Origin: a virus
Lineage: Duplodnaviria; Caudoviricetes
Direction: 5' to 3' (one strand)
Length of the DNA stretch: 59,246 nt
IMG/VR virus record: IMGVR_UViG_3300029309_000034
Span: 1-59,246 of that record
Positions 39,258 through 57,487 of the stretch are shown piece after piece (the first letter of the stretch is position 1; each line of letters opens with the position of its first letter). The notes under the pieces are model-generated. The model was not told the origin of the DNA, made no database searches, and was given only the letters and a program-made list of their open reading frames with translations. Position numbers and translations under genes: made by a program.

Positions 39258-39260
39258 CTG

Positions 39261-39932: not shown

Positions 39933-39944
39933 AATATATACTCC

Positions 39945-41998: not shown

Positions 41999-42028
41999 AC
42001 TATATCACTACCTAAAAAAATATGTCAA
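41999..42028 (-). promoter_or_regulatory. Sigma70 promoter for the helicase/SSB/primase operon
   Basis: TTGACA (42023-28), 18 nt, TGn-TATAGT (41999-42004) on the minus strand. Confidence 0.75.
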
Positions 42029-45230: not shown

Positions 45231-45514
45231 TTTTTATGTTGTTTTCTAAGTGCTTCTTTTCCTTTTTTAAATATAGACGCAACTTGTGTTTTGCCCATAA
45301 CTTTAGCTCGTTGCTCACCAACTGTTAGGATTTGTATTTTACGTGCGTATGGCTTGTTAATTTTTTTAACTTTAGCCACAGTCTTTCTTGCGTCTGTAGG
45401 AGTCGCAAACTTTATGCCTACAGTGTCCTTCGGGTTTTCGTCAGTATATAGTCTACGACCACTACCCTTTGGTTTTTTACCTGTTCCTACTTTTGGGTCT
45501 TTTCTTTTTTTCAT
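45227..45514 (-). CDS. Basic protein (RLYTDENPKDT family)
   Basis: GAGGAG RBS; highly basic. Confidence 0.75.
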   Translation of the reverse strand: MKKRKDPKVGTGKKPKGSGRRLYTDENPKDTVGIKFATPTDARKTVAKVKKINKPYARKIQILTVGEQRAKVMGKTQVASIFKKGKEALRKQHKK

Positions 45515-45744
45515 GTCTCCTCACTGTCTAAGTCATAGCCAGTTCCCAGCCCTTTTTTAAAAAATTCTTCATCAGTCATTCCTAACACTGCTTCATGTTG
45601 ATTTAAATTTAACTGTTTATTTTTGTCAACGTAAATCGTAAGATATGTGATTCTATCCTTAGGGTGCAGACTATCATAAGTGTTGGAATTTCTACCTCTC
45701 TCAATGATGTCGCTTATGGTTGTGGGTTTTTTCTCTTCACTCAT
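45511..45744 (-). CDS. Hypothetical protein
   Basis: Operon packing with ATGA overlap. Confidence 0.6.
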   Translation of the reverse strand: MSEEKKPTTISDIIERGRNSNTYDSLHPKDRITYLTIYVDKNKQLNLNQHEAVLGMTDEEFFKKGLGTGYDLDSEET

Positions 45745-45749
45745 AATTT

Positions 45750-46046
45750 TTAAATGTTACTTTCACTTGATAGTATCAAACACTCTAACATGTCAACATT
45801 TGTTTCGTCAACAACTAATGATTGACCTAGTGAATTTTTTATATCGTTGAGATTTTTTTCTTGAAGTGCTGTGGGTTTGTTGCCGTTGGCTTTGCACTCG
45901 ATACCAATGAACTTGCCACGATAAGATACAATAAAGTCTGGTACACCACTAAAGCCATAGCCACCTGTTGCAGGTGTACAGTAATAACAGCTAAGTTCCT
46001 TTAAAATTTTTTTTACTTTCTGCTTGACTTTTTTCTCTGGTGTCAA
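45750..46046 (-). CDS. VRR-NUC nuclease / Holliday junction resolvase-like
   Basis: E.KV, GVPDF, IECKA, PTALQ. Confidence 0.85.
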   Translation of the reverse strand: MTPEKKVKQKVKKILKELSCYYCTPATGGYGFSGVPDFIVSYRGKFIGIECKANGNKPTALQEKNLNDIKNSLGQSLVVDETNVDMLECLILSSESNI

Positions 46047-46434
46047 TACTAATTCCTTTCAGTTCAAATAGTTCATGTTCAGACATGACTATAACATATA
46101 TACTATCAGACACACACCAACCGATATGTTCGAACTCTGGATTTTCGCTTGTGAATTTCTTCCCGACATAACAATCTAGCTCCACAAAAAATTCATCTTC
46201 AAAAGCATTCCAATCTTTTTTAGAAATAGAGTTAATCATGGCTAACTTTGATTTAATAAAGGAAGGTAATGTTTCCGCCTGGAGTATTCTTTTTGTGTTA
46301 TTACCAGTATAAAATTTATATGATAGAGAAGCTGAGTTTTCCCGTTTGCTTACGGGAACTTCCGTTTCTAGGAGCACCATGTGGTGGTGCTCTGAAAATT
46401 GTTTTGGACTGTATAATATCTCTCCTACTCTCAT
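45991..46434 (-). CDS. Hypothetical protein (contains palindrome copy 1)
   Basis: 147-aa ORF on the coding strand of this arm. Confidence 0.6.
   Translation of the reverse strand: MRVGEILYSPKQFSEHHHMVLLETEVPVSKRENSASLSYKFYTGNNTKRILQAETLPSFIKSKLAMINSISKKDWNAFEDEFFVELDCYVGKKFTSENPEFEHIGWCVSDSIYVIVMSEHELFELKGISIDTREKSQAESKKNFKGT
46339..46358. promoter_or_regulatory. TTCCCGT-N6-ACGGGAA palindrome, copy 1 (intragenic)
   Basis: TTCCCGT ttgctt ACGGGAA. Confidence 0.85.
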
Positions 46435-46544
46435 AGTAGGAACTATAATTACACTTATTTTATTTTTTGTCTATTTTTTTCTTCGTTATTTGCGATTTAA
46501 GGTACTTAAAAAAACTTTCGCTTATCTAAGTACCCCCATTTTAA

Positions 46545-46724
46545 TTATGAGTAATAGTGTTCAAAAATAACTTTGCCGTTTTCATCTTCAATTAAATATT
46601 CATAATCTGGATTTAGTGATAAATGCTCGTCAACCACTCCCTCGCCATAAATTTTCATTATTTCTTTATCGTCTTTTGCCTCGACCACTATTTTCCTTGT
46701 CCTAGTCACAAAGTATTTTTTCAT
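46545..46724 (-). CDS. 59-aa hypothetical protein (not in ORF track)
   Basis: GGAGG RBS, ATGA overlap; MKKYFVTRTRKIVVEAKDD... Confidence 0.65.
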   Translation of the reverse strand: MKKYFVTRTRKIVVEAKDDKEIMKIYGEGVVDEHLSLNPDYEYLIEDENGKVIFEHYYS

Positions 46725-46915
46725 AATTCACCTCCTTCATAAGCTTTATAATCTTCCTCAAGTTCCCACTCATGCCATCCAAAGCATTGGTCTATCCCAT
46801 AAAGAAAAGCATTTAATTCTTCAATGGTATCAAAAGTATATGTTTCTTTTGTTTCCTTATCCATTCCCCAAATTATTGTTACTTCTTGTTTAACTTTTTC
46901 TTTATCACTCATCAT
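46721..46915 (-). CDS. Acidic hypothetical protein
   Basis: GGAGG RBS; YTFDT.EEL.AF..G. Confidence 0.7.
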   Translation of the reverse strand: MMSDKEKVKQEVTIIWGMDKETKETYTFDTIEELNAFLYGIDQCFGWHEWELEEDYKAYEGGEL

Positions 46916-47075
46916 TCACCTCCTCTAACATGTCCTCTGTAAAACTTTCCTCAAAATATTCTAATTCTTTACAACGAATTTCTGGTTTTAAACGATATGT
47001 TTTACCGTCATCATTACCATCTTCATCTATCATATAAAATGTAATCTCGTTAAATCTTATGTATTTATCACTCAT
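46905..47075 (-). CDS. 56-aa acidic hypothetical protein (not in ORF track)
   Basis: GAGGTGAAAAACTATG leader; MSDKYIRFNEITFY... Confidence 0.65.
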   Translation of the reverse strand: MSDKYIRFNEITFYMIDEDGNDDGKTYRLKPEIRCKELEYFEESFTEDMLEEVNDE

Positions 47076-47094
47076 AGTTTTTCACCTCTCTCTT

Positions 47095-48342
47095 TTAAAA
47101 TTTAGGTTTAGGCACAAGCACCCAACTTACATTACTTAGTGCTGTCTTGTTGCTAGAGGCGTTAACATAATAACAACCAATATCTTCAAGCCACTTTCTA
47201 TCACCATAACTAATACGTCCTTTATAATACTTTCTATGTATTTTACCATCAGTTTCATTCTGCCAATTCTCTAGCTTTAGTTTAAGCATAGCGAATGTAG
47301 GTTTTAAACTATCATAAAAACACAAGTCGTCTAGGTGGCGTACCCTTTGTGAATTTGTAAGTTCTAGTCTTTTAAAATCTATCCCATACTTACGATTGCC
47401 TGTCTCGTCAGCAAATGCAGATTCTGGATTTTGAGTTACTTCGCCCACCAAATAACCTACATTATTAGACACTCCGATTGCAATAAACCCATTATCCATT
47501 TCTTGTTTAATTTGTTCATAAGCATCTTTTATGTCCTCTCGGTGTTCATCAAGAGCTGTTAGTTCCTTAGTATAGTGTTCAGCAATATTATGAGGTATCG
47601 CTGTTTTGTTTTTAAACAAGCACATAAGTATCTCACTTAAATAGCTTTTCTTATCATCTGTCAAATTATAAACTTTAGCTTCATAATCTCTACAAAGCTG
47701 TTGTAAGTTTGCCTGTGCACCCGTACGAGTAATATCCGCAATATATTCATAGCACATATCTCTAGTATCCATGTGATAATTAAAAACATAATGACCTACA
47801 GTTCCCAAATCATAGCTATCAGTGGTATGATTGTGTTCACCTCTAAGAGGTACATACTTCTTACGTTTTAAAGCTCTTAACACTTGTGATAGTTTCTTTG
47901 ACCTAATCGTTCTTGTATCCCATGAACTATGACCTCTGTCTTTGATTTCAAAGTCTGCATGAAAACAGTAATCATTTTTATCATCAATACAAACTACAGC
48001 CACATCAATTCCTTTGTGTGCAAGTGCGAAACTCTCAAAGTCTTGCCAACCACTGAATTCATTTCTAATTGTTTGCCCATGTGGACTATCGTCATCATCA
48101 TAAGGACAATATTTGTTATCATTTTGTCTATCGTCAAGAGGGAAATCAGAAAGTGCATATTTAGTACGATGACTGTGGTTCCCAGCTGAATTAGGACGTA
48201 TGTACTTCACCAATCTTCGTTGACTTACTTTGAGGTCGTGGGCATGACATATGTCCCGTACCATGGGCAAGACTTTACTCTCGCTTAAACTCTTCTCTAG
48301 GTCTGGTGTCCACATAGCTTTTTCAATATATTTCTTAATCAT
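47095..48342 (-). CDS. Hypothetical early protein, 415 aa
   Basis: GGAGAAAAACTATG leader; long ORF with no recognisable motif. Confidence 0.8.
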   Translation of the reverse strand: MIKKYIEKAMWTPDLEKSLSESKVLPMVRDICHAHDLKVSQRRLVKYIRPNSAGNHSHRTKYALSDFPLDDRQNDNKYCPYDDDDSPHGQTIRNEFSGWQDFESFALAHKGIDVAVVCIDDKNDYCFHADFEIKDRGHSSWDTRTIRSKKLSQVLRALKRKKYVPLRGEHNHTTDSYDLGTVGHYVFNYHMDTRDMCYEYIADITRTGAQANLQQLCRDYEAKVYNLTDDKKSYLSEILMCLFKNKTAIPHNIAEHYTKELTALDEHREDIKDAYEQIKQEMDNGFIAIGVSNNVGYLVGEVTQNPESAFADETGNRKYGIDFKRLELTNSQRVRHLDDLCFYDSLKPTFAMLKLKLENWQNETDGKIHRKYYKGRISYGDRKWLEDIGCYYVNASSNKTALSNVSWVLVPKPKF

Positions 48343-48545
48343 AGTTTTTCTCCGTTGTTAACATCGTCATTATTCTCTTTGACATCAGTTATTAAATTTG
48401 CAGATACTTCAATTATTTCTAAATCAGTCGCAGTATATTGTTCTAAAAGTTGATTACCACGCATTACATTAATTCGTAAATCTCCGTTCCAATCATCTTC
48501 GTGTATTTCTACTGCTACTTTAATCATTGTAAATTGTTTTGCCAT
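48339..48545 (-). CDS. Hypothetical protein
   Basis: GGAG RBS directly after palindrome copy 2. Confidence 0.65.
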   Translation of the reverse strand: MAKQFTMIKVAVEIHEDDWNGDLRINVMRGNQLLEQYTATDLEIIEVSANLITDVKENNDDVNNGEKL

Positions 48546-48563
48546 TTTAATTACTCCATAGTT

Positions 48564-48583
48564 TTCCCGTTAGCTTACGGGAA
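48564..48583. promoter_or_regulatory. Palindrome copy 2 (intergenic)
   Basis: TTCCCGT tagctt ACGGGAA. Confidence 0.9.
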
Positions 48584-48592
48584 TATTTAGTA

Positions 48593-49681
48593 TTAATTAA
48601 ATTTAGATAGTATCTCGTCAATGCCTTGCTTGACATCTTCTCTGGTACTATCACTCTCACGCAATAACTCGGTACTGACACCACCAATTACTTTTTCCAA
48701 GTCATCAACTGCATTCTGCAACTTAATGCTTTGCTCGTTGTCGGTTGGTCTAAAGTTCTTGATAGTATTTACTAATGCTTTTGCTCGTTCAAAGGTTGTG
48801 TCAAAAATAGCTCGTTTTCTAAAGATAGGCTTACCCTCTTTGTCAACACTTTCATTGTGTCCACAACAATGTGAAATACTTTTCATCACATCAACAATAC
48901 GATTGACTTGTGTGTCAATAACGTTATGCACAATGTTATCTGCCTGTTGTTGATATTCTGCCTTTAGATTTTCTGCTGTGTCTTGTGCCACTTGACATCT
49001 AAAATCGTGGCTTGGTACTTCCGATACATACAATCGCATATTAAACTTTTGTCGTAACTCCTCAATACTTGGATAGTCATTCTTATCAAACATATCACCT
49101 TGTTTAAATGCCTCATCACTTACAAGAGTTTGATAGTTGTCCAGAAAGTCCTCTACTGCTGTAGTAAATTCACTCTCATACTTATCATACTCTTTCTTGA
49201 ATTTTTCAAGGTCAACTGTTGGTAGCAAGTCTTGAGCATTGTTCCACCTATAAGTAGAGTGCTTGAGCCATTTAAGTATCAACTGTCGTAACTTCACAAT
49301 CCTATGGTGTTTAGGATTTTTAGCAAACAGATACTTGGTAACTTTCGCAGTACCCATTTCTGCTTTTTTCATAGTCGTTACTTCATCAGAGATACCTCTG
49401 TCTTGCTTGGTTGCAGTCCACACATTGACATCAACTGACACCAACATGCTTGATGTTGCCAACGACACAATGTGTTCTGGTTGTTGTAGCTTATAGCTAT
49501 CTGTGGTTATACTACTTTCTTTTTTTAACATAGTTTTTACTCCTGTTGTAATAATTGTTTCAGTTTTACATTCTTGACAAACAAAAGGCACACACCCATA
49601 TTTGACATCATGTTCATCATGCTTTGTTTCTTTTTTACAAGTTTCGCAAAATCTCCACTCATACCATTCTTCTTCTGTCAT
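48593..49681 (-). CDS. DUF3150-like helical protein with in-frame N-terminal zinc ribbon (second start at 49531)
   Basis: V.V.V..WT..K.D and F...DYP..EEL..KF motifs; two RBS leaders, before 49681 and 49531. Confidence 0.65.
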   Translation of the reverse strand: MTEEEWYEWRFCETCKKETKHDEHDVKYGCVPFVCQECKTETIITTGVKTMLKKESSITTDSYKLQQPEHIVSLATSSMLVSVDVNVWTATKQDRGISDEVTTMKKAEMGTAKVTKYLFAKNPKHHRIVKLRQLILKWLKHSTYRWNNAQDLLPTVDLEKFKKEYDKYESEFTTAVEDFLDNYQTLVSDEAFKQGDMFDKNDYPSIEELRQKFNMRLYVSEVPSHDFRCQVAQDTAENLKAEYQQQADNIVHNVIDTQVNRIVDVMKSISHCCGHNESVDKEGKPIFRKRAIFDTTFERAKALVNTIKNFRPTDNEQSIKLQNAVDDLEKVIGGVSTELLRESDSTREDVKQGIDEILSKFN

Positions 49682-49707
49682 AGTTTTTCTCCCATAGTTT
49701 AAATTAA

Positions 49708-50895
49708 TTAATCATACTGCACGACAATACTTCCAGTCGTACCTTTAAAGTCTTTGTTACCCTTAACAATGTGTAGTGTGGGTGTAGACATATTCCAATC
49801 AATATCATGCTCCACCCAGCCGTCAGTAAACACAATGATTGCCTCTGCTTGTATTCGTTCCTTTGTGATGTATTCACTAACACAAGATAGTCTAGTGCCA
49901 CCACCACCCTCAACTTTAAGTACCTTGCTTATATTTTCGTATTGGTCTGGTCTGAATATCTGCTCACTACATACCTCATAATCCCACCACAATACTCGTA
50001 TTAAGTCTGGTGTAACTGTGTCTACGATACTCTGCAATTCGGTAGCAAAGATTGTCAGTTCTTCTTGACCGATACTTCCAGAAGTATCACATGCAATCAC
50101 CAGCTCACCTACACTTTCGTTTTCCATAGAGGGTAGATACAAGTCATTAGGTAACATTCGCTTGTTAAACTTTCGCCAAGTAAACTCGTCATTACCCTTA
50201 CAGGTTGATGATATAAACTCCCTCATCATTTCTCGCCAATCAAGTTTTGGCTCAAACAGTTCGTCAATAGCTCGTGGTATTTTCTTACCAAGTTTACCTG
50301 CAAGTATCCCACCCTCTTTGAGTGCGTTTTCAATTTTCTGTGTCATTTCTCTCTGTTCTTGAGGTGTCATAGTCTGACTGCTATCGCCAAAGTCGTGTTC
50401 ATCAAGAGGTTCAAGATTTCCCGTATGCTCACGGGAATTTCCATTTCCGTTTCCGTTTTCGTCTTTATCTTGTTCCTCTAAGTCTCGCAGTATCTCGTTG
50501 ACTGACCAATTATGATACTTCTCTTCATACAAACAACCATCGGGAAGTTTGCACAATGATGTATCCTCTAGGTGCACAATTACATCATTCACTACGTAAT
50601 CAGCACACACATTCATATGATATGGATTTTTCTTAAACTGTTGCTTAAACCTACTGACATGATTAAGTGCCACGTGCAAATTCTCGTGCAAGACCAATGC
50701 TCGTAGTTCTTCATCTGTCAGTCCCTCAACAAACTTTCTGCCATAGAATTTGTTGTAGCCGTCAGTCTTTGCAGTTGGACAATCATCTACAATCTCATTC
50801 TTACCCATGAGAATTATCCCAGAATACAATGCGGTTTCTGGGTGTTTCATCAGACTAATATGAGCTTTCTTTAGCCGTTCTTCGGTTGTTATCAT
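49708..50895 (-). CDS. Metallopeptidase plus vWA protein (DUF2201-like)
   Basis: TAKTDG, LHENLH, N...DYVVN; MIDAS DTSGS, GGGGT, FTDG; start MITTEER after AGGAG. Confidence 0.85.
   Translation of the reverse strand: MITTEERLKKAHISLMKHPETALYSGIILMGKNEIVDDCPTAKTDGYNKFYGRKFVEGLTDEELRALVLHENLHVALNHVSRFKQQFKKNPYHMNVCADYVVNDVIVHLEDTSLCKLPDGCLYEEKYHNWSVNEILRDLEEQDKDENGNGNGNSREHTGNLEPLDEHDFGDSSQTMTPQEQREMTQKIENALKEGGILAGKLGKKIPRAIDELFEPKLDWREMMREFISSTCKGNDEFTWRKFNKRMLPNDLYLPSMENESVGELVIACDTSGSIGQEELTIFATELQSIVDTVTPDLIRVLWWDYEVCSEQIFRPDQYENISKVLKVEGGGGTRLSCVSEYITKERIQAEAIIVFTDGWVEHDIDWNMSTPTLHIVKGNKDFKGTTGSIVVQYD
50418..50437. promoter_or_regulatory. Palindrome copy 3 (intragenic, in a low-complexity linker)
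   Basis: TTCCCGT atgctc ACGGGAA. Confidence 0.85.
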
Positions 50896-50914
50896 AATAT
50901 TTCTCCTATCATAA

Positions 50915-51979
50915 TTACATAATGTTAAAGTTATCCACAGCCCAGTCTGCAATCTCTTTGTTACCTCTAGCAATCTTGACTGTGCGTGAGTTTTTCATAA
51001 GCATAGTAAAGAAAATAGCTTGTATCTCATTACTCGCCATGCGATTGACAAACTTCATAAATGCAGTCAAGTCGCTTTGCTGTTTGACTTTATCAACAGC
51101 TTGGAACATCAACATCAGTTGAGCCGAAATACTTTCTGGCACAGGAGTTGACTCTGGCTCTTTGAGTACGTCATCAAAGGTCGGTAGCTCTTTCTCAAGT
51201 CGTAGAAAAGCCGACATATCAGCACTCGCACTCTGACCGATTGTGCCACTCAATGCACACATAGTTAGATTGTCGCCTAGCTTATCCCTGTTATCCACAA
51301 TCACACTAGCTTTTTCTAGTGAACGTGGACTGACAAAAGACAATATAGGTTTTTTTGGATTAAAAATGTAAGGATTATCCTCTTGCCCCTCGTCTCGGTA
51401 ACTCGCAAGACATCTAGCGAATGTATGTACGAATGCTCGTATCAAAGGACTAACTCCATTTTCAGTCGCCCATACTAGCCAATCTTCTACTTGTGGTTTT
51501 TGCATTTCCACAATGCACACTCTGTTACCAGCATGTGCCAATACTGAGTCGCCCAAACCGTCAGCTTGATTGTTAGAAGTACCAAACACAATACTTCCTT
51601 TTGGTAGAGGTGTATCACCTACAGTTCTTTCCAACATCATTCTAGTATAAAGTGTCTGACATAACCTAGGCGATTTCATAAACTCATCTAATAGTATGAA
51701 CTTAGGTTTATCACTATCAAGTTTAAACAATGAGCCAGTATAATTGTCTAATGTTTTAGTATTATGGTTAGGAATAGTCATAGCAATATCTGACATATCC
51801 TTGACTGGACAATCTACATAAATGTAGTCGTACTTATCTCCATATTTTTTCTCAATCGCTTTGAGTAAACTTGTCTTACCGCAACCAGGCTCACTCTGTA
51901 TGATTACTGTTAGCTTCTCTCCAATGGTGGGTATTAGAGTTTCACACTCTTTAATTGTTGCTCTTAATTGTATAGCCAT
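50915..51979 (-). CDS. MoxR/CbbQ-like AAA+ ATPase
   Basis: Walker A SEPGCGKT, Walker B LLDE, TSN sensor, NR finger, SPRS. Confidence 0.85.
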   Translation of the reverse strand: MAIQLRATIKECETLIPTIGEKLTVIIQSEPGCGKTSLLKAIEKKYGDKYDYIYVDCPVKDMSDIAMTIPNHNTKTLDNYTGSLFKLDSDKPKFILLDEFMKSPRLCQTLYTRMMLERTVGDTPLPKGSIVFGTSNNQADGLGDSVLAHAGNRVCIVEMQKPQVEDWLVWATENGVSPLIRAFVHTFARCLASYRDEGQEDNPYIFNPKKPILSFVSPRSLEKASVIVDNRDKLGDNLTMCALSGTIGQSASADMSAFLRLEKELPTFDDVLKEPESTPVPESISAQLMLMFQAVDKVKQQSDLTAFMKFVNRMASNEIQAIFFTMLMKNSRTVKIARGNKEIADWAVDNFNIM

Positions 51980-51984
51980 AGTTT

Positions 51985-52131
51985 TTACTCCTGTGGTTTC
52001 CCACTATTTGAGGCATATCTGCCTGTTCTGTTTTCTAAGTCTTTCATATCTTGGTGTTGCAGTATCATTAGTAACCCAATAGCTGTTACTATCAATCCTA
52101 ATGCAAACCCTATTACAAACATCATTATCAT
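51985..52131 (-). CDS. 48-aa membrane peptide (not in ORF track)
   Basis: GGAGTAAAAACTATG leader; MIMMFVIGFALGLIVTAIGLLMIL...; stop lies inside the next gene's leader. Confidence 0.7.
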   Translation of the reverse strand: MIMMFVIGFALGLIVTAIGLLMILQHQDMKDLENRTGRYASNSGKPQE

Positions 52132-52151
52132 AGTTTTTACTCCTGTGGTTT

Positions 52152-52171
52152 TTCCCGTATGCTGACGGGAA
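52152..52171. promoter_or_regulatory. Palindrome copy 4 (intergenic)
   Basis: TTCCCGT atgctg ACGGGAA. Confidence 0.9.
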
Positions 52172-52172
52172 T

Positions 52173-52628
52173 TTAAGTTATTAATTTATTGTCTGGGTCG
52201 AATGTAAGCTCAAATACTTCAATATAAGGTTTTGATATACAAGCCAAGTTGTAACCCATATCACCATAGCACTCTTCCACTAAGTCAGAAGTTTCTTCAC
52301 CCACTCGTAGAAAACAAGCCGACATTCCAAACTTATCGTCCTCGCAGTAATGACTTGCTTTACCGATAATACAATTATAACTCTGTACCCATTCATCTGT
52401 GTCGTACCACTTGACATCTTGAAAATGCACATACAAAGAGCAGTTTTTCATATCAATCCCATTTTCCCCAAGCTCCTCGTGCTTTTTGCCATTCATAAGT
52501 TCACGCATAGCCATATCACATTTAGGGTCAGATTTAAGTTCAGCGATAAACAAGTGCCAATTCCTAACACTTTCCTTATCATTGTCATCCATTTGTACAG
52601 CTATACAAACTTCACTACGATATCCCAT
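52173..52628 (-). CDS. Hypothetical early protein
   Basis: MGYRSEV, VKWY, F.RVGEE..D.E motifs. Confidence 0.75.
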   Translation of the reverse strand: MGYRSEVCIAVQMDDNDKESVRNWHLFIAELKSDPKCDMAMRELMNGKKHEELGENGIDMKNCSLYVHFQDVKWYDTDEWVQSYNCIIGKASHYCEDDKFGMSACFLRVGEETSDLVEECYGDMGYNLACISKPYIEVFELTFDPDNKLIT

Positions 52629-52629
52629 A

Positions 52630-52737
52630 CTAACCCCCTATGCTACGCATGTAGACTGTTACAGCACAAGATACCACCACTAACAAGGGTATAAGTGCTA
52701 TAATCGTTAACTTAAAATATATTATTAGTTTATCCAT
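52630..52737 (-). CDS. 35-aa membrane peptide (not in ORF track)
   Basis: GGAG RBS; MDKLIIYFKLTIIALIPLLVVVSCAVTVYMRSIGG. Confidence 0.5.
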   Translation of the reverse strand: MDKLIIYFKLTIIALIPLLVVVSCAVTVYMRSIGG

Positions 52738-52840
52738 TTTCACTCTCCTGTTGTTCTAACTTCAAAAGTTCATTAGCATACTCAAGTTCATAATCGTATT
52801 CTTCGTCATTGTCTTGATATTGAAACACTTCTTTACTCAT
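52730..52840 (-). CDS. 36-aa very acidic peptide (not in ORF track)
   Basis: GAGGTAAACTATG leader; MSKEVFQYQDNDEEYDYELEYANELLKLEQQESENG. Confidence 0.55.
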   Translation of the reverse strand: MSKEVFQYQDNDEEYDYELEYANELLKLEQQESENG

Positions 52841-52843
52841 AGT

Positions 52844-53110
52844 TTACCTCTCTGATTTTTTAGATAATACATTGTATGTTTTAGGTGGTGCGACTTTCTG
52901 ATATGGTTGGAACCAATTAATATGTCCTTTGACTGCACCGACTAATTCTGGTTTATCCCATGGTTCTCTGTCCCTATATTCTGGTGTTGCGGACATTAAT
53001 TGCTCGAACATTCCATCAATATCCTCTTGCGTGTGTATGTTGCCGTCTGGATACACATGTAAAAATCCAAGTACATTATCGTCTTTTACTACTAAAGTTA
53101 ATTTTGACAT
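52844..53110 (-). CDS. Hypothetical protein
   Basis: GAGG RBS. Confidence 0.7.
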   Translation of the reverse strand: MSKLTLVVKDDNVLGFLHVYPDGNIHTQEDIDGMFEQLMSATPEYRDREPWDKPELVGAVKGHINWFQPYQKVAPPKTYNVLSKKSER

Positions 53111-53128
53111 TATATTTACCTCTCTGTG

Positions 53129-53299
53129 TTAAGTTTGTTTGTTGTCATCTTTACCCCCTTGCACATACTCATGCAATATTTTGATTTGTTCCTCTCTCGT
53201 AAAACTTTTAGCTATGTATTGTTTGAGTGCTATTTCATACTCTTCTTTAGTTACATTAGGTCTATTCATCTCCCACCATAGATATGCAAAGTCAGTCAT
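53129..53299 (-). CDS. 56-aa hypothetical protein (not in ORF track)
   Basis: GAGGTG RBS; MTDFAYLWWEMNRPNVTKEEY... Confidence 0.55.
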   Translation of the reverse strand: MTDFAYLWWEMNRPNVTKEEYEIALKQYIAKSFTREEQIKILHEYVQGGKDDNKQT

Positions 53300-53444
53300 C
53301 TTTCACCTCTTCGTCATCTATTATCTCTACATCAAAATCACCTGCAAAACTTGTGGCTAACTCAATAGCGTTTTCTATGTAATTGTCATCATCTTTTACT
53401 TCAACATCTTTATAAACTCTTACTGTTATGTACTCTTCACTCAT
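53292..53444 (-). CDS. 50-aa very acidic protein (not in ORF track)
   Basis: GGGAG RBS; MSEEYITVRVYKDVEVKDDDNYIENAIELA... Confidence 0.6.
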   Translation of the reverse strand: MSEEYITVRVYKDVEVKDDDNYIENAIELATSFAGDFDVEIIDDEEVKDD

Positions 53445-53868
53445 CTGTAAAATTCTCCCATTCGTCTGGTATTAATTGTTTAATATCTATTTTAAATCCT
53501 TCTTCCATATTATTGTAAAGATAGTCTGCAATTTTTCGGACTACTTTAACTGTCACATATTTATATCTTAAGTCCATTCGTAAAAGAATTTCTGTAGTCT
53601 GCTGTGACACTTCTGTAAACCTTCCAAACTCATTAAATCGTATTGAGTGTTTTTTCAAATATTGTACTAATACTGAAGTATCTACTTTTATTCTTGTGAA
53701 TGACCCCGAAATGTACCTACCCTTATTTTTTAATTTATATCTTTGCCTAACTATTGGGTGTTGTCTTTTAGGTTCATCAATATCGTTATAATTTTTATGG
53801 TGTTTCATTTGTATATTTTTCATTTGTATACCTAATTTTGTATTAATTTCGGTAGTTAAAATATTCAT
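53437..53868 (-). CDS. Hypothetical basic protein
   Basis: ATGA coupling; AT-rich ORF. Confidence 0.65.
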   Translation of the reverse strand: MNILTTEINTKLGIQMKNIQMKHHKNYNDIDEPKRQHPIVRQRYKLKNKGRYISGSFTRIKVDTSVLVQYLKKHSIRFNEFGRFTEVSQQTTEILLRMDLRYKYVTVKVVRKIADYLYNNMEEGFKIDIKQLIPDEWENFTDE

Positions 53869-54080
53869 CTGTGAAATCCCCCTTTGTTGTTAATACCCTT
53901 TAAGTCTTTTAAGTCGCTAACTACAACATAGTTGGATTTGTGCATAGGTGCGATTGTGTGCTTTACTTTTCTGGCTTGAGTTTCCCCACAATCTAGGCAG
54001 GTGGTGAACCCTGCCTCTAATCGTTTCTTGCTGTAATATGCACCACAGCTAGAACAGATTGCTTTCATTGATTTACTCAT
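53865..54080 (-). CDS. DksA/TraR-type C4 zinc finger protein
   Basis: CSSCG...KRLEAG..TCLDC. Confidence 0.7.
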   Translation of the reverse strand: MSKSMKAICSSCGAYYSKKRLEAGFTTCLDCGETQARKVKHTIAPMHKSNYVVVSDLKDLKGINNKGGFHR

Positions 54081-54099
54081 AGTTTTTACTCCCGTGATT

Positions 54100-54119
54100 T
54101 TCCCGTATGCTGACGGGAA
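54100..54119. promoter_or_regulatory. Palindrome copy 5 (intergenic)
   Basis: TTCCCGT atgctg ACGGGAA. Confidence 0.9.
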
Positions 54120-54122
54120 TTG

Positions 54123-54497
54123 TTATCTTGTTAAGAATGCGACCTCTTGTGTTGCTTTGCGTTCCATATACCTCATCATAGAGCCACATCTTATATACTC
54201 TTTCATTTCGGCAGTATCTAGCCAACAATGTATTTTCTCATTAGGTCTACATTGTGATTGATGTTTTGAAGTTGAAGATGAATAGCTACCTTGATTGCCT
54301 ATCCATATCCCAGCTTGTCGGTCATAGATGTACATAGGAAAATGATATCCATAGCTATATACGACATATAACCCTTCATCATCAAAGGATACTTTATTTT
54401 CTGCAAAGATACTTGCGTCAGCATATCTATTATATGAGCCCTTAAATTCTTTCAGCTCGTTGACATATTTTTTTGCGTTTTTATTTGCTACTCTCAT
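54123..54497 (-). CDS. Hypothetical early protein
   Basis: YVVYSYG.HFP and YS.STSKHQ motifs; GGAGCAAAACTATG leader. Confidence 0.75.
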   Translation of the reverse strand: MRVANKNAKKYVNELKEFKGSYNRYADASIFAENKVSFDDEGLYVVYSYGYHFPMYIYDRQAGIWIGNQGSYSSSTSKHQSQCRPNEKIHCWLDTAEMKEYIRCGSMMRYMERKATQEVAFLTR

Positions 54498-54515
54498 AGT
54501 TTTGCTCCTGTAATT

Positions 54516-54535
54516 TTCCCGTTAGCTTACGGGAA
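54516..54535. promoter_or_regulatory. Palindrome copy 6 (intergenic)
   Basis: TTCCCGT tagctt ACGGGAA. Confidence 0.9.
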
Positions 54536-54679
54536 TAGTTAGTTAATATTAGTCGTCTGGTTTTTAAATATATTTGTACCATTATGACTATTATACTATA
54601 GGTCAAGTGATAAGTACAGTGTTCTGCACTTTTAATACAATCTAAATGAGCTGATGTTTTTCACTATCCTAACATGACT

Positions 54680-54718
54680 ACTACACTAACTACACCAACT
54701 ACATCAACCACATCAACC
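54680..54718. repeat. Degenerate 9-bp tandem repeat, 4 copies
   Basis: actacacta actacacca actacatca accacatca acc. Confidence 0.8.
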
Positions 54719-54765
54719 TGTGATTATCCTGCGGACATCAGGTCAGGGTTAGTGTTATGTATCGC

Positions 54766-54998
54766 TGTAAACTTTTGCTGTTGGTATAAACTCAGGCTCT
54801 TCTGCCTAGCCATAAAACTAAGTTTTTTGTTATTGTGAACTTTTGTTGGTGGTGTAAAACTGTTTCATCATCTCCTTGTTTATTCTGTATGTTTTTTATG
54901 AGTGTAAACTTTTGTTGGTGGTGTAAAACTCTACGGCTCGTATACGTCCAGCGTCTTAAGTTATCTATTGTAGTATACATCTGACTGCGATTAAAACT
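54766..54998. repeat. Regularly interspaced 27-28 bp repeats (period 68-69 bp)
   Basis: TGTRAACTTTTGYTGKTGGTRTAAA(A)CT at 54766, 54834 and 54903; degenerate copy near 54973; 41-bp spacers. Confidence 0.8.
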
Positions 54999-55117
54999 TA
55001 AAGGTCGATTCCCATTGTTCAGACTCTAACTTTGTGTCTTTCTCCCTATCTAAATGTTACTCTCATAAAAACTTAATAGAGGCTACGATGCTAGATAGTG
55101 TCGCTTTCTGCTAGTTT

Positions 55118-55137
55118 TCCCCGTAAATTTACGGGAA
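55118..55137. promoter_or_regulatory. Palindrome copy 7 (one mismatch)
   Basis: TCCCCGT aaattt ACGGGAA. Confidence 0.75.
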
Positions 55138-55140
55138 TCT

Positions 55141-55500
55141 GCGGTTCACGGTTCACAAAGGGGTCAACTTTACATATAGAACTGGAACCGAACATTTTGT
55201 CGAGCTGTAGTCAGACTTAAGTGTCTGTTTTATTTAAAGTATAGTATAGTATATATTAAGTTTATTTTAGTAATTTTATGGTCGGTTCCATAGTTCCTAT
55301 CTTTTTTATAGGACAAATCCTTTTTGCTACAAATACTACACCGCAAAAATCAGAGGCACGACTCCAAGTAATTTAAAAAACTTCTCACTATCTAAATAAA
55401 ATAGGAACTACGGAACTGGTCTTATATATCAAGCACTTAAGTAGGAACCAAAAAAGGAACTGAAGTACTTTACATATAGAACTGAACCTCACTATCCACA
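55141..55500. other. Candidate phage replication origin (GGAAC/GTTCC iterons, 18-bp direct repeat, IHF-like site)
   Basis: ACTTTACATATAGAACTG at 55167 and 55467; inverted repeat 55284-55300/55401-55417; TATCAAGCACTTA at 55427-55439. Confidence 0.45.
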
Positions 55501-55579
55501 TAGACCCACTATCTAACTGATAACTGGTGTTAAAAGTCTTGCTGAGGTTTTTCAAAAAAAATTCTAAAAAATTTTAGAC

Positions 55580-55613
55580 AAAAAAACCCCCGTATACTCA
55601 TAATATACAGGGG
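55580..55613 (-). terminator. Intrinsic terminator after the 220-aa gene
   Basis: Minus strand CCCCTGTATA-loop-TATACGGGGG followed by T7. Confidence 0.75.
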
Positions 55614-55639
55614 AAAAATAACTTCCATGTTAGTCCTAA

Positions 55640-56302
55640 TTATTCAATTACTTGAATATCGTTCTCATCTTTGAATTTTTGGATTTTATCCGCAATAACC
55701 TGTAAATCATTTTTAATAATTTTGTAAAATAATTTTTCATTTGCGGAATGTAAATCCTTATTTTTATCTAGTAAAGCATTAATTACAGGCGTTGAGGTTC
55801 TTGTAATATTTTTATCTAGATTGACAACAAGATGCTGTTTGATGGTGTTTTTCTTACTTTCACCTTTAGCCCTATTTTGTAATTTAGTAAACTTTCTTTT
55901 CATATTGCCGTCAGCATTTTCCAAAATACCACGTTCGGACTTATCGCCTACTTTATAACCTTTTAGAGTATTTGCGATTTCTTCAGTATATTTTGGTTTT
56001 CCTTTACCATCTGTTACTTTTAGAAAATCACCCTTTGAAAGTGGCAAGTCAAACATATCAACCTTGTTAGTAATAACATACTTGCTAATGTCTTCATCTT
56101 CCATGTAAACATTGATTTTAATAACAGAATGTAAGTCAACATCTACTTTTTTAAGTTCTCTCATACTTGAAACTTCAAGTAATGCAGGGTTACTTATTGC
56201 CATTTTTTGAGCTACACCCGTAGCTAGAATATCACTATCTTCAGAATTTTTTAAATGGTTACTGAAATTTTCCATTTGTTTATATAAGTTTTTAATACTC
56301 AT
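55640..56302 (-). CDS. Stand-alone early protein, 220 aa, unknown function
   Basis: GAGG RBS; own promoter and terminator; K/N-rich. Confidence 0.75.
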   Translation of the reverse strand: MSIKNLYKQMENFSNHLKNSEDSDILATGVAQKMAISNPALLEVSSMRELKKVDVDLHSVIKINVYMEDEDISKYVITNKVDMFDLPLSKGDFLKVTDGKGKPKYTEEIANTLKGYKVGDKSERGILENADGNMKRKFTKLQNRAKGESKKNTIKQHLVVNLDKNITRTSTPVINALLDKNKDLHSANEKLFYKIIKNDLQVIADKIQKFKDENDIQVIE

Positions 56303-56337
56303 TTTTATTCCCTCGTTTTAAAAGTTTAAGTTTAAAT

Positions 56338-56357
56338 TTCCCGTATGTTGACGGGAA
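56338..56357. promoter_or_regulatory. Palindrome copy 8 (5' leader of the 220-aa gene)
   Basis: TTCCCGT atgttg ACGGGAA. Confidence 0.9.
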
Positions 56358-56401
56358 ACCCCGTATAGTGAAATACAACTTTATTAATCACTATACCTTT
56401 T

Positions 56402-56429
56402 ACTATACACGAATGTATATAATTTACAA
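56402..56429 (-). promoter_or_regulatory. Sigma70-type promoter for the 220-aa gene
   Basis: TTGTAA, 16 nt, TATAGT on the minus strand. Confidence 0.45.
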
Positions 56430-56479
56430 TAGTAGAACACAAAAAAACTAAAATAAATGAGCCGTAAAAACTGGCGATG

Positions 56480-56560
56480 TAAGTTGTTGATTTTATTAAG
56501 AAATCCCGAAAGTATCCACAAGTTATCCACAGAGTTATCCACAGAATAATTTAAATTATT
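56480..56560. promoter_or_regulatory. IHF consensus site, three tandem DnaA boxes and AT-rich palindrome
   Basis: TAAGTTGTTGATT (56480-92, reverse of WATCAANNNNTTR); GTATCCACA 56512, TTATCCACA 56523 and 56535; AATAATTTAAATTATT 56545-60. Confidence 0.75.
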
Positions 56561-56567
56561 TTAAGAA

Positions 56568-56587
56568 TTCCCGTTATTTTACGGGAA
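56568..56587. promoter_or_regulatory. Palindrome copy 9
   Basis: TTCCCGT tatttt ACGGGAA. Confidence 0.85.
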
Positions 56588-56785
56588 ACTGGTTATACCA
56601 CGCATACCCCATACGGCAAAATTTTTGTACACGCACACAGTCCCCTATACACTGAGTTTTACGCAAATAATCGGCAAAATATGTAAAGCCATAGACCTAC
56701 CCTTGCTATATGTAAAGTAGCCCCCTATGAAATAAAAAGGCGAGTGCAAAAAAATTTTCTGCAAAATTTTGAAAAACCAAGGGGC

Positions 56786-56811
56786 AAAAAAACCCCCAGC
56801 AAGTGTGGGGG
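56786..56811 (-). terminator. Intrinsic terminator downstream of the 121-aa gene
   Basis: Minus strand CCCCCA...TGGGGG followed by T7. Confidence 0.65.
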
Positions 56812-57405: not shown

Positions 57406-57434
57406 TTGTATTAAAAATAATTATATATTATACT
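57406..57434 (+). promoter_or_regulatory. Sigma70-type promoter for the packaging/late operon
   Basis: TTGTAT, 17 nt, TATACT. Confidence 0.6.
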
Positions 57435-57487
57435 TTTAGTAAGTAAAGTAAGCTGCAATTAATGTACATGGGTGTAAACAGCGACAC

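What the first reader, a model, noticed from the sequence alone, without database searches (positions are those of the whole stretch)
46339..56587. Nine TTCCCGT-N6-ACGGGAA palindromes confined to the early 10 kb, with about 2-kb spacing
Seen: copies start at 46339, 48564, 50418, 52152, 54100, 54516, 55118, 56338 and 56568; I found none in the other 49 kb. Fourteen fixed bases are expected about 2e-4 times by chance in 59 kb under uniform composition. The first five are 2225, 1854, 1734 and 1948 bp apart. Two lie inside genes, one in the NGNGNGNSREHTGN linker of the vWA protein, as if spacing along the DNA were under selection. The spacer is asymmetric and co-oriented (NNGCTN in six copies). 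Inference: a site-specific system rather than simple leaders. Options are binding sites that protect or pull in the first-entering DNA, hairpin promoters or boxB-like antitermination hairpins, operators of the Cro-like protein (38113-38424) or the 220-aa protein, or recombinase-type arm-spacer-arm sites.
Basis: partly seen in the sequence, partly recalled or inferred. Interest (0 to 1): 0.82.

Follow-up and report, generated by a model that had tools for sequence, protein, structure and literature searches.

The report
Lineage-private palindromes punctuating a phage early operon
Nine copies of one 20-base palindrome mark the first-expressed 10 kb of this uncultured marine phage, and its relatives keep the same places but each uses its own palindrome, which points to a recognition code read by a fast-evolving phage protein that has not been identified.

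Summary
There are 8 exact copies and 1 one-mismatch copy of TTCCCGT-N6-ACGGGAA, all at 46339-56587, against 0 expected. They lie in the leftward early operon of a complete 59-kb phage.

The pattern runs through the family. 62 of 81 related loci carry at least 4 copies of their own palindrome, in at least 21 motif classes. The copies sit at orthologous places, including the two sites inside genes. In every larger genome checked they are confined to one 9-10 kb segment.

Both arms change together between lineages. Within a genome they are held to one sequence: there is no G.U excess (31 against 34 A.C) and no excess of compensated variants. The sites are therefore read by sequence, by a phage-encoded factor.

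The Cro-like protein, the first early protein, the primase-helicase and the AAA ATPase are excluded as that factor. The 220-aa protein, whose own leader carries a copy, the 415-aa protein and the 2017-aa virion protein still track the motif. None has a known fold.

My best reading, at about 0.4, is an operator/"stoperator"-like DNA site network that controls host-RNAP transcription of the early operon. The rivals are boxB-like RNA hairpins, N4-style hairpin promoters, and sites for the injected giant protein. The roughly 2-kb spacing and the co-oriented spacer do not generalise.

The parts
56568..56587 (.). Palindrome copy 1 (exact). It lies after the terminator of the first early gene, is preceded on the minus strand by TGgTATAAc, and is followed by three DnaA-box-like 9-mers.
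56338..56357 (.). Palindrome copy 2 (exact), in the leader of the 220-aa gene, 35 nt before its ATG.
55118..55137 (.). Palindrome copy 3 (one mismatch). It lies downstream of the strong terminator and is preceded by a non-coding block that is conserved in relatives (..GTTGACCCCTTTGTGAACCGTGAA..).
54516..54535 (.). Palindrome copy 4 (exact), 18 nt before the ATG of the 124-aa gene.
54100..54119 (.). Palindrome copy 5 (exact), 3 nt after the stop of the 124-aa gene and 19 nt before the ATG of the 71-aa zinc-ribbon gene.
52152..52171 (.). Palindrome copy 6 (exact), 1 nt after the stop of the 151-aa gene and 20 nt before the next ATG.
50418..50437 (.). Palindrome copy 7 (exact), inside the DUF2201/vWA gene in a variable linker. 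Relatives have their own palindrome at the same place.
48564..48583 (.). Palindrome copy 8 (exact), 9 nt after the stop of the 362-aa gene and 18 nt before the ATG of the 68-aa gene.
46339..46358 (.). Palindrome copy 9 (exact), inside the 147-aa ORF. This is the last copy, and relatives have theirs at the same place.
55640..56302 (-). The 220-aa early protein, best candidate for the cognate factor. It has no Pfam or PHROG family and a mostly helical model with no known fold. Its gene is bracketed by a palindrome-bearing leader and a strong terminator.
47095..48342 (-). The 415-aa protein, second candidate. It is syntenic throughout the family and evolves very fast. It has a conserved basic motif (IK-RG..WD..T..S.K.SQ) and no known fold.
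29030..35083 (+). The 2017-aa virion (polyvalent) protein, third candidate. It carries LPD38, an FtsK-gamma-like winged helix and an HExxH motif, and also differs between motif lineages. No RNA polymerase signal was found.
55587..55613 (-). Intrinsic-terminator-like hairpin (12 pairs followed by a T run) directly after the 220-aa gene.
56793..56811 (-). Intrinsic-terminator-like hairpin after the first early gene (121 aa).
57420..57447 (-). Sigma-70-like promoter match (TTTACT-16-TATAAT) ahead of the 121-aa first early gene.
56390..56429 (-). Two overlapping sigma-70-like promoter matches upstream of palindrome copy 2 and the 220-aa gene.

Best explanation
Shown: the nine palindromes are recognition sites of a sequence-specific factor that the phage itself encodes. 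The sites are private to each lineage, fixed in place, and restricted to the ~10-kb early operon, which host RNA polymerase must transcribe because no phage RNA polymerase was found. Inferred: they act as double-stranded, dyad-symmetric operator sites for a dimeric early protein. The best candidate is the 220-aa protein, possibly working with the 415-aa protein. That protein would be made first, from a sigma-70-type promoter whose leader already carries a site, and transcription beyond its gene is stopped by a strong terminator. It would then bind every site along the operon. This would autoregulate its own gene and gate or shut down elongation by host polymerase through the early genes. The arrangement resembles an operator plus 'stoperator' network like that of mycobacteriophage L5, but symmetric and confined to the early module of a phage in which no integrase was detected. 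Sites sit in the short stop-to-Shine-Dalgarno spacers where such spacers exist, and in tolerant protein linkers where they do not.
For: (1) The pattern is not chance and is clustered: 8 exact copies plus 1 near copy, none elsewhere. The same confinement to one 9-10 kb segment holds in G001 and G002 and in G004-G008. (2) It is family-wide. 62 of 81 loci have at least 4 copies of their own palindrome, in at least 21 classes. (3) The places are orthologous. The intragenic sites in the vWA gene and the 147-aa gene recur with each lineage's own arms, recoding a variable linker. In the compact L123 lineage, 4 of 7 sites lie inside ORFs. (4) Recognition is by sequence, not merely by pairing. Between lineages, 6 of 7 arm pairs change on both sides and 92.7% of cells stay paired. 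Within genomes the arms are near-invariant: G.T 31 against A.C 34 among 2226 pair cells, only 3 of 65 two-mismatch copies are compensated, and 254 of 266 exact-arm copies keep the lineage's spacer length. (5) The factor is phage-encoded. The window and G001 share 97-100% identical structural proteins, including the 720-aa tail protein, and 97-100% identical replication genes (DNA polymerase, SSB, SNF2 helicase, nuclease; the primase-helicase is 82%), yet they use different palindromes. (6) Many candidates are excluded: the 121-aa first protein is 100% identical between the window and G001, and between G001 and G002 the Cro-like 103-aa protein is 100%, the primase-helicase 96% and the AAA ATPase 96% identical. 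The 220-aa and 415-aa proteins follow the motif. A 201-287 aa ORF with no known family starts 90-140 nt after the first palindrome in 7 of the 12 further lineages inspected, and lies next to it in 2 more. (7) The contexts are mixed, as in operator/stoperator networks. In relatives, one site abuts the -35 of a consensus promoter and two overlap the -35 region ahead of TATAAT or CATAAT (my reading of the printed flanks, L181 and L163). Other sites lie in leaders, in intercistronic spacers or inside ORFs. (8) A cultured distant relative, Rhizobium phage RHph_TM3_14A, has 15 exact GTTACC-N6-GGTAAC sites in regions transcribed in both directions, which fits a DNA-level site.
Against: No binding was shown. 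The 220-aa and 415-aa proteins have no recognisable DNA-binding fold. Their tracking of the motif may be linkage within one fast-evolving module. The 415-aa protein can be 28-31% identical between genomes that share TGTCGA arms, and the giant protein also tracks lineage. A palindrome is equally a hairpin: the RNA stems fold at -9.4 to -13.0 kcal/mol, and a few copies with the same arms but other spacer lengths exist (12 of 266), which a hairpin reader tolerates better than a dimer on duplex DNA. 67% of copies (205 of 306) lie outside ORFs, typically 15-29 nt before a start codon, a placement that also suits an RNA-level role. No integrase or other lysogeny gene was seen, so the L5 rationale of prophage silencing does not carry over. 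L5 sites lack dyad symmetry and are oriented (PMC6550527, passages read), whereas these are symmetric.
Confidence: 0.4

Rival explanations
1. The sites act as RNA hairpins read by a cognate RNA-binding early protein. One version is lambda N/boxB-like processive antitermination. A hairpin in the leader of the 220-aa gene and at intervals downstream would load a factor onto host RNA polymerase, so that it reads through the terminators at 56793-56811 and 55587-55613 and through the 10-kb operon. The other version is hairpin-specific processing or 3'-end protection of the polycistronic early RNA.
For: The layout promoter, hairpin, small early gene, strong terminator mirrors pL-nutL-N-tL1 (the lambda layout is recalled). 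The stems are stable as RNA. Most copies sit between a stop codon and the next Shine-Dalgarno sequence. Loop sequence and, rarely, loop length vary while the arms stay fixed. Lineage-private hairpin and protein pairs are the rule for N/boxB (recalled).
Against: 101 of 306 copies, and 2 of 9 here, are inside translated ORFs at conserved places, where ribosomes would unfold them and where processing would cut the message. G.U pairs on the mRNA strand show no excess over A.C (31 against 34). The Rhizobium relative carries the site in regions transcribed in either direction. No arginine-rich small protein, NusG paralogue or Cas6-like fold was found.
Confidence: 0.25
2. The sites are bound on the incoming DNA by the injected 2017-aa polyvalent virion protein (FtsK-gamma-like winged helix, HExxH) or by co-injected proteins. 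They would protect, organise or help draw in the first-expressed segment, or recruit host machinery to it. This is a DNA-level function that is not primarily transcriptional.
For: Between the window and G001, which are otherwise 97-100% identical, the two clearest replaced blocks are the early region and the ejection-protein/giant-protein block with the adjacent primase-helicase and 103-aa genes (25-38.4 kb); a few tail-region proteins are also only 79-83% identical. The giant protein differs between all motif classes (24-39% identity) and is 74% and 51% identical within two classes. It has a sequence-reading winged helix of the FtsK-gamma type. Sites occur at most about 2.5-3 kb apart regardless of coding, and are genome-wide in the Rhizobium relative, which also has a giant protein.
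Against: There is only one weak winged-helix match (25 bits, below the Pfam cut-off). The giant protein is 51% identical between two genomes with the same palindrome. The true genome ends and the order of entry are unknown, because the record is a circular assembly. The close link of many sites to gene starts is not explained.
Confidence: 0.15
3. The sites are N4-style promoters: DNA hairpins extruded from supercoiled DNA and read by a phage RNA polymerase that sequence and fold searches here failed to recognise, with transcription starting a few bases after each hairpin.
For: The phage shares the AAA/vWA gene pair with N4-like phages. Its giant protein aligns with N4 gp50 residues 2157-2243 around the HE(A/L)VHA motif (E 0.0036, probability 9%). 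N4-like phage LUZ7 has nine early hairpin promoters with starts 13-14 nt from the hairpin centre (PMC9163698, passages read), and a start at that distance here would leave a 15-18 nt leader holding the Shine-Dalgarno sequence. The copy number, the intragenic copies and the lineage-private sequence resemble the co-evolution of phage polymerases with their promoters.
Against: No RNA polymerase was detected. Pfam, PHROGs, PDB sequence and profile searches and the Atlas search of the giant protein gave only polyvalent-protein domains. The polymerase core of gp50 did not align. The 415-aa and 220-aa families do not match N4 RNAPII subunits, and the 415-aa model has no polymerase-like fold match. 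N4 hairpins have a 3-nt loop with a conserved purine (PMC4496689, passages read), whereas here the spacers are 2-8 nt and variable. Sigma-70-like promoters and intrinsic terminators are present.
Confidence: 0.08
4. The sites are selfish or neutral palindromic repeats (REP/MITE-like) that spread by copying and have no role for the phage.
For: The units are short, palindromic, multi-copy and mostly intergenic.
Against: The copies occupy orthologous places in lineages whose palindromes differ entirely, including places inside two conserved genes. No transposase or RAYT-like gene was found. The copies are confined to one functional module in all 9 genomes checked.
Confidence: 0.03

Closest known systems
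Operator/stoperator network of mycobacteriophage L5 and other Cluster A phages (repressor gp71)
   Same: Both have many copies of one short site spread through transcription units. A few copies lie in promoters and most do not, and they sit mostly in short intergenic spaces. The motif differs between related phages and co-varies with the cognate protein (PMC6550527, passages read; PMC9283540, abstract in the search listing).
   Different: L5 sites are 13-14 bp, lack dyad symmetry, are oriented with transcription, number 20-30 over the whole genome, and serve lysogeny. Here the sites are dyad-symmetric and number 5-12. They are confined to the early 10 kb of a phage in which no integrase was found, and the candidate protein has no similarity to known repressors.
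Lambda-family N protein with boxB/nut hairpins
   Same: Both have a lineage-private hairpin of similar size, placed between an early promoter and the first small gene, with a terminator behind that gene. Protein and hairpin co-evolve (recalled knowledge).
   Different: Lambda has two nut sites per genome, and they must stay untranslated. Here there are nine sites, two of them (and a third of all sites family-wide) inside ORFs. No boxA was looked for, and no arginine-rich N-like protein was found.
Early hairpin promoters of N4-like phages, read by the virion RNA polymerase
   Same: In both, hairpin-forming inverted repeats occur upstream of early genes only, with several to nine copies. A giant injected protein is encoded at the end of the structural genes. 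The AAA/vWA genes are shared, and there is a short match to gp50 (PMC4496689 and PMC9163698, passages read).
   Different: No polymerase domain was detectable here. N4 hairpins have 3-nt loops with conserved bases, whereas here the spacers are 2-8 nt and whole arms change between lineages.
Phage-specific promoters of T7-like phages co-evolving with their RNA polymerase
   Same: Both show about 10-17 near-identical sites per genome, spaced 1-2.5 kb apart just ahead of genes or inside upstream genes. The sites are private to each lineage and change in concert (recalled knowledge).
   Different: T7 promoters are asymmetric, directional, and absent from the earliest region, and they need a phage polymerase, which is lacking here.
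KorB OB operators of plasmid RK2, and the conserved inverted repeats (CIRs) of Streptomyces phage phiC31
   Same: Both are a dozen or so palindromic sites for one global regulator, some at promoters and some remote (recalled knowledge, no paper read here).
   Different: No ParB/KorB-like or phiC31-repressor-like protein was detected by Pfam or PHROGs among the ORFs scanned.

Membership tests
L5-type operator/stoperator system | Many copies of one short site distributed through the transcription units, most of them not in promoters | tested here: met
   There are 9 copies here and 5-12 in relatives, and their contexts are mixed.
L5-type operator/stoperator system | Sites lack dyad symmetry and are oriented with transcription | tested here: not met
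   The sites are dyad-symmetric (92.7% of arm cells paired). Central bases flip within a genome.
L5-type operator/stoperator system | The motif co-varies with a cognate phage DNA-binding repressor | tested here: inconclusive
   The 220-aa and 415-aa proteins track the motif, but so does the giant protein. The 415-aa protein diverges to 28% identity within one arm class. No binding was tested.
L5-type operator/stoperator system | Temperate phage with integrase or partition genes | tested here: not met
   Pfam found no integrase, ParA or ParB on 40 window ORFs and PHROGs none on 20. Small ORFs on the + strand were not all scanned.
Lambda N / boxB (nut) antitermination | A hairpin transcribed downstream of the early promoter and ahead of terminators | tested here: met
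   Copy 56338 lies between promoter-like sites and the 220-aa gene, with a terminator at 55587-55613. The promoter calls are consensus matches only.
Lambda N / boxB (nut) antitermination | nut RNA is not translated | tested here: not met
   2 of 9 copies here and 101 of 306 family-wide lie inside ORFs.
Lambda N / boxB (nut) antitermination | A small arginine-rich N-type protein binds the hairpin | not testable with these tools
   No family match was found for any early protein. RNA binding cannot be computed here.
N4-type virion-polymerase hairpin promoters | A virion-packaged T7-like RNA polymerase domain | tested here: inconclusive
   None was found by Pfam, PHROGs, PDB sequence or profile search, the Atlas, or hhalign against gp50. 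The N-terminal 1400 residues of the giant protein were not folded.
N4-type virion-polymerase hairpin promoters | A 5-7 bp stem with a conserved 3-nt loop centred about 11-14 nt before the start | tested here: not met
   The spacer is 6 nt here, and 2-8 nt and variable in relatives. Transcription start sites are unknown.
T7-type RNase III processing sites | A long, roughly 20-bp interrupted double-stranded RNA stem between early genes | tested here: not met
   The stems are 7-8 bp. The length requirement is recalled knowledge.
REP/RAYT-type mobile palindromes | A cognate HUH transposase and copy-number or position polymorphism | tested here: not met
   No such gene was found. Positions are orthologous across lineages.

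The most novel reading that the evidence does not exclude
An undescribed cis-trans code is shared by a large family of uncultured marine phages (316 relatives were detected) and, genome-wide, by a cultured Rhizobium phage. Proteins of new fold (the 220-aa and 415-aa families) or the injected giant polyvalent protein would read a lineage-private 16-22 bp palindrome placed at least every ~3 kb through the first-expressed DNA. This would programme host RNA polymerase, or the fate of the entering DNA, without any phage polymerase. It would be a functional counterpart of T7 promoter/polymerase or N4 hairpin/vRNAP co-evolution, built from new parts.
Probability: 0.25. Interest if true: 0.8.

Novelty: new variant of a known kind. 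Interest (0 to 1): 0.62.

Why it matters
A whole family of abundant marine phages, with no cultured close relative in the phage collection searched (best identity 26-35%), appears to run its early programme through a private palindrome code. That code switches wholesale between phages that are otherwise 97-100% identical. If the reader protein is found, it gives a new sequence-specific nucleic-acid-binding fold with dozens of natural orthogonal protein/site pairs, which would be useful as orthogonal regulators. It also gives a handle on how phages without their own polymerase time early genes. And it may explain why the early module and the ejection-protein module are exchanged as blocks, which could work as an immunity or incompatibility barrier between co-infecting relatives. 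The Rhizobium phage offers a culturable system for testing this.

Tried and rejected
The motif is not shared with other viruses. In the scan of viral contigs, 116 stretches hold an exact match. I saw 80 rows, and each has a single site. None of the 9 first relatives has the motif at 2 mismatches or fewer.

There is no near-DNA relative in the phage collection. The 415-aa protein has no phage-collection or viral-contig relative by tblastn.

Rfam found no family at gathering score, and there are no tRNA genes.

Fold searches were uninformative. The 415-aa model (pLDDT 79.3) had no Foldseek PDB match at E<=0.001, and VIA gave only coiled-coil matches with Z<=7.5. The 220-aa model (pLDDT 81.6) gave only helical-hairpin matches with Z<=8.3, and in BFVD only its own identical entry. 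The Atlas search of the 220-aa protein gave no usable hit.

The 415-aa and 220-aa families do not match the N4 RNAPII subunits gp16 and gp15.

Complex prediction on two copies of the 220-aa protein returned no verdict. I count it neither for nor against binding.

The look-up of sequencing runs listed no RNA holder, so transcript ends could not be read. The runs laid are DNA contigs only.

Pseudomonas phage KPP25, a relative by DNA polymerase, has no repeated palindrome.

A host-factor site is rejected, because the window and G001 share near-identical virion proteins yet differ in motif. Selection for 2-kb spacing is rejected as a general rule. Co-orientation of the spacer is rejected as general.

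Gene-proximal copies are not sigma-70 promoters. The ATG lies 18-20 nt after the site, which leaves no room for a -10 element and a start.

Literature: five full-text searches gave no description of this family's palindromes and no paper naming RHph_TM3_14A. Supplementary files were not opened.

Full report
OBSERVATION. The pattern TTCCCGT-N6-ACGGGAA occurs exactly 8 times, at 46339, 48564, 50418, 52152, 54100, 54516, 56338 and 56568. None of 100 shuffles gave a match. Allowing up to 2 mismatches adds only 55118, which has one mismatch, and nothing in the remaining 49 kb (0.04 expected).

The window is an entire virus record of 59,246 nt. Its first and last 99 nt are identical and its large-terminase ORF runs across the ends, so it is a circular assembly and the physical ends are unknown.

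SETTING. Genes from about 35.3 to 57.4 kb are on the minus strand. They include:
- a DUF927 primase-helicase, a T7-type SSB, an SNF2 helicase, a PD-(D/E)XK nuclease and a family-A DNA polymerase;
- upstream of these, the palindrome-bearing early block, with an AAA ATPase, a DUF2201/vWA protein and many ORFs without a family.

Structural genes, including a 2017-aa virion protein, are on the plus strand.

No RNA polymerase was detected in the 51 window ORFs scanned against Pfam and/or PHROGs, nor in the PDB or Atlas searches of the giant protein.

Read on the minus (coding) strand, the start of the operon is as follows:
- a promoter-like site at 57447-57420;
- a 121-aa gene;
- a terminator-like hairpin at 56811-56793;
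- copy 1;
- three DnaA-box-like 9-mers at 56512-56543;
- promoter-like sites at 56429-56390;
- copy 2;
- the 220-aa gene;
- a strong terminator-like hairpin at 55613-55587;
- copy 3, then the remaining copies.

Four copies (48564, 52152, 54100, 54516) lie 1-9 nt after a stop codon where an ORF precedes them. They end 18-20 nt before the next ATG and 5-8 nt before GGAG.

RELATIVES. The exact motif is not multi-copy in any other viral contig that I saw (80 of 116 rows). Relatives found through the vWA protein (9 loci, 60-81% identity) lack it, but they carry their own repeated palindromes of the same geometry:
- TGTAGT..ACTACA, 7-9 copies;
- CGTCGT..ACGACG, 10 copies;
- TGTCGA..TCGACA;
- TGTCGT..ACGACA.

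The copies occupy the same slots. The site in the vWA linker, the site in the 147-aa ORF and the intercistronic sites all recur, each rewritten in the lineage's own arms. My reading of the printed sequences is that the vWA linker reads NSREHTGN here, CSELTT in L121 and SSSSDDE in L129.

A profile of the AAA ATPase found 316 relatives, of which 80 loci were kept. Of 81 loci, counting the window, 62 have at least 4 copies of a private palindrome. There are at least 21 arm classes, with arms of 6-9 nt and spacers of 2-8 nt. Many of the other 19 loci are short, and they were not examined further.

In every larger record tested, all copies fall in one segment:
- G001: 8 copies at 31012-41037 of 58.9 kb;
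- G002: 10 copies at 18568-28852 of the 60.0 kb held;
- G003 (27.4 kb, partial): 9 copies at 10370-19487;
- G004 and G005: 7 copies each within 9.5 kb;
- G006: 11 copies, G007: 9 copies, G008: 11 copies, each within 8.9-10 kb.

DNA contigs from other marine samples show yet other palindromes inserted at the 52152 and 54100 slots (table 5c).

WHAT KIND OF CONSTRAINT. Across 55 copies from six lineages, 92.7% of arm cells pair and 6 of 7 pairs change on both sides. The covariation score is 0.475 against 0.169 in shuffles and at most 0.126 for slid partners.

Within genomes, however, the arms are held to a sequence:
- among 371 distinct copies (2226 pair cells) there are 2052 Watson-Crick pairs, 31 G.T, 34 A.C and 109 other, so wobble pairs are not favoured on either strand;
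- only 3 of 65 two-mismatch copies are compensated, and a control suggests that about 27 of those 65 are chance hits;
- 254 of 266 exact-arm copies keep the lineage's spacer length.

So the arms are read as sequence, symmetrically. Pairing alone is not what is conserved.

Placement is biased. 205 of 306 copies lie outside ORFs although about 82% of the spanned DNA is coding. For those copies, the distance to the next ATG peaks at 15-29 nt. Still, a third of all copies are intragenic. In the compact L123 lineage, 4 of 7 sit inside ORFs, far from gene starts.

Gaps have a median of 923 nt and rarely exceed 3 kb. The roughly 2-kb spacing of this window is therefore not a family rule.

As RNA, the nine stems fold at -9.4 to -13.0 kcal/mol, with z-scores of -2.3 to -4.8.

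WHO READS THE SITES. The window and G001 are mosaics of each other. The portal, capsid and tail proteins (including the 720-aa tail protein), the polymerase, SSB, SNF2 helicase and nuclease, and the very first early protein (121 aa, 100%) are 97-100% identical, yet the palindromes differ.

G001 (TGTAGT) and G002 (CGTCGT) share a 100% identical 103-aa 'Cro-like' protein, a 96% identical primase-helicase (92-100% in every 50-column window) and a 96% identical AAA ATPase. These are excluded.

The proteins that are divergent between motif classes and conserved within the TGTAGT class are:
- the 220-aa protein (about 22% against 75-85%);
- the 415-aa protein (35-53% against 69-73%);
- more weakly, the 362-aa protein.

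The 2017-aa protein is 24-39% identical between classes, and 74% and 51% identical within two classes.

Several caveats apply. All of these proteins evolve fast. The 415-aa protein falls to 28-31% identity between genomes that share TGTCGA arms. Linkage within a module could produce the same pattern.

The 220-aa family is small: 12 representatives at E<=0.001 among 1.84 billion. In 7 of the 12 further lineages inspected, a 222-253 aa ORF of no known family starts 90-140 nt after the first palindrome. In 2 more, a 201- or 287-aa ORF ends just before it. In 3, the locus starts too close to show it.

Neither the 220-aa nor the 415-aa model matches a known fold.

The giant protein is a polyvalent protein (LPD38, an FtsK-gamma-like winged helix, an invariant HExxH). 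Its HExxH segment aligns weakly with N4 gp50 just after the polymerase core, but the core itself finds no counterpart.

A DISTANT CULTURED RELATIVE. Rhizobium phage RHph_TM3_14A shares the polymerase, the SNF2 helicase, the nuclease, the primase-helicase, the AAA ATPase and part of the giant protein. It carries 15 exact GTTACC-N6-GGTAAC sites, plus weaker variants. They are spread over the whole 60.9-kb genome, in regions transcribed in both directions, and most gaps are 2.1-2.8 kb. KPP25, which lacks the AAA ATPase and the primase-helicase and shows no match to the giant protein, has none.

INTERPRETATION. The following is established: these are cognate recognition sites of a lineage-specific phage factor, tied to the early module and conserved in position.

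How they act is inference. I favour double-stranded operator/'stoperator'-type sites for a dimeric early protein that autoregulates and gates host-polymerase transcription of the early operon (about 0.4). The reasons are:
- recognition is symmetric and by sequence;
- the spacer length is fixed;
- wobble pairs are not tolerated preferentially;
- a third of the sites are translated;
- contexts range from promoter-abutting to intragenic;
- in the Rhizobium phage the sites ignore the direction of transcription.

L5-type stoperators are the nearest described system, but they are asymmetric, oriented, genome-wide and serve lysogeny (PMC6550527, passages read), so this is not a member of that family.

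Three other readings remain open:
- An RNA-hairpin reading (boxB-like antitermination, or processing or stabilisation), at about 0.25. The promoter-hairpin-gene-terminator layout and the stop-to-Shine-Dalgarno placement fit it, and rare spacer-length variants exist.
- Sites for the injected giant protein, at about 0.15.
- N4-style hairpin promoters, at about 0.08.

No fold, family or RNA data could decide between these. No RNA run holds the phage.

LIMITS. No experiment or transcript data were available. Promoter and terminator calls are consensus matches. ORF calls in relatives are mechanical. Copies in related genomes are not independent events. The 220-aa gene of G001 is partly masked. The giant protein was not folded. 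Supplementary files of papers were not opened.

Noticed in passing
window 56512-56543: Three DnaA-box-like 9-mers (GTATCCACA, TTATCCACA, TTATCCACA on the + strand) lie 11-12 nt apart, between palindrome copies 1 and 2. The consensus was recalled from memory. Two further exact boxes lie at 50931 and 51291. The total count of matches with 1 mismatch or fewer is not above chance (25 against 19 expected), but the triplet cluster is striking and could mark an origin or a DnaA-controlled promoter.
   Followed up: partly
window 29030-35083 (residues 817-891): The 2017-aa virion protein has an invariant HExxH motif (H879, E880, H883 in three homologues). This segment aligns with N4 virion RNA polymerase gp50 residues 2157-2243 (ETLIHELVHAST against DTVLHEAVHAAT). 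This suggests that part of the giant protein is related to the non-polymerase part of gp50. The hhalign probability is only 9%.
   Followed up: partly
window 25075-38424 and 45511-56600 compared with G001 (the contig of L122/L146): The window and G001 are 97-100% identical in most proteins but are replaced in two main blocks. One block is the ejection and giant proteins with the adjacent primase-helicase and 103-aa genes. The other is the palindrome-bearing early region. A few tail-region proteins are also only 79-83% identical. Two separate modules appear to have been exchanged together.
   Followed up: partly
MN988472.1 (L216, L218), whole genome: Rhizobium phage RHph_TM3_14A carries 15 exact GTTACC-N6-GGTAAC palindromes, plus spacer-5 and arm variants, genome-wide. 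Many gaps are 2.1-2.8 kb and many copies lie inside genes such as the DNA polymerase, the SNF2 helicase and the primase-helicase.
   Followed up: partly
window 55138-55170 (minus strand, just upstream of copy 3); L121 ~6775-6812; L122 ~705-741; L128 ~6930-6969: A non-coding block (..ATGTAAAGTTGACCCCTTTGTGAACCGTGAA..) is conserved across lineages whose palindromes differ. It lies immediately 5' of the third palindrome, inside a ~1-kb mostly non-coding stretch (54536-55586). It could be a promoter or a small RNA. Rfam finds nothing.
   Followed up: no
window 53865-54080 (-): The 71-aa protein has CxxCG-x16-CxxC, conserved in all lineages. From memory it resembles TraR/DksA-type zinc fingers, which bind the RNA polymerase secondary channel. 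Pfam gave only sub-threshold zinc-ribbon hits.
   Followed up: partly
window 41999-42028 (-): This is the best sigma-70-like promoter match in the replication block (TTGACA-18-TATAGT with TG, 11 of 12), ahead of the SNF2 helicase gene. It suggests that the replication genes have their own promoter downstream of the palindrome zone.
   Followed up: no
L128 5640-5662 (also L141 ~4019, L142 ~6518, L143 ~6640): A conserved extra hairpin has the lineage's arms but a 9-nt spacer (CTGTAGT-N9-ACTACAG). It sits about 30 nt upstream of the canonical copy that precedes the counterpart of the 220-aa gene.
   Followed up: no
window 52152 and 54100 slots, in contigs of runs X5-X7: Marine DNA contigs from other samples join the flanks of these slots across different inserts. 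One insert carries TCGTCCCC-ATTT-GGGGACGA. The other carries the window's arms with a 5-nt spacer (TCCCGT-AATTT-ACGGGA).
   Followed up: no
window 1-456 and 58053-59246: The large-terminase ORF is split by the record's ends, and the first and last 99 nt are identical. The 'direct terminal repeat' label on the record is most simply an assembly overlap of a circular or permuted genome.
   Followed up: yes
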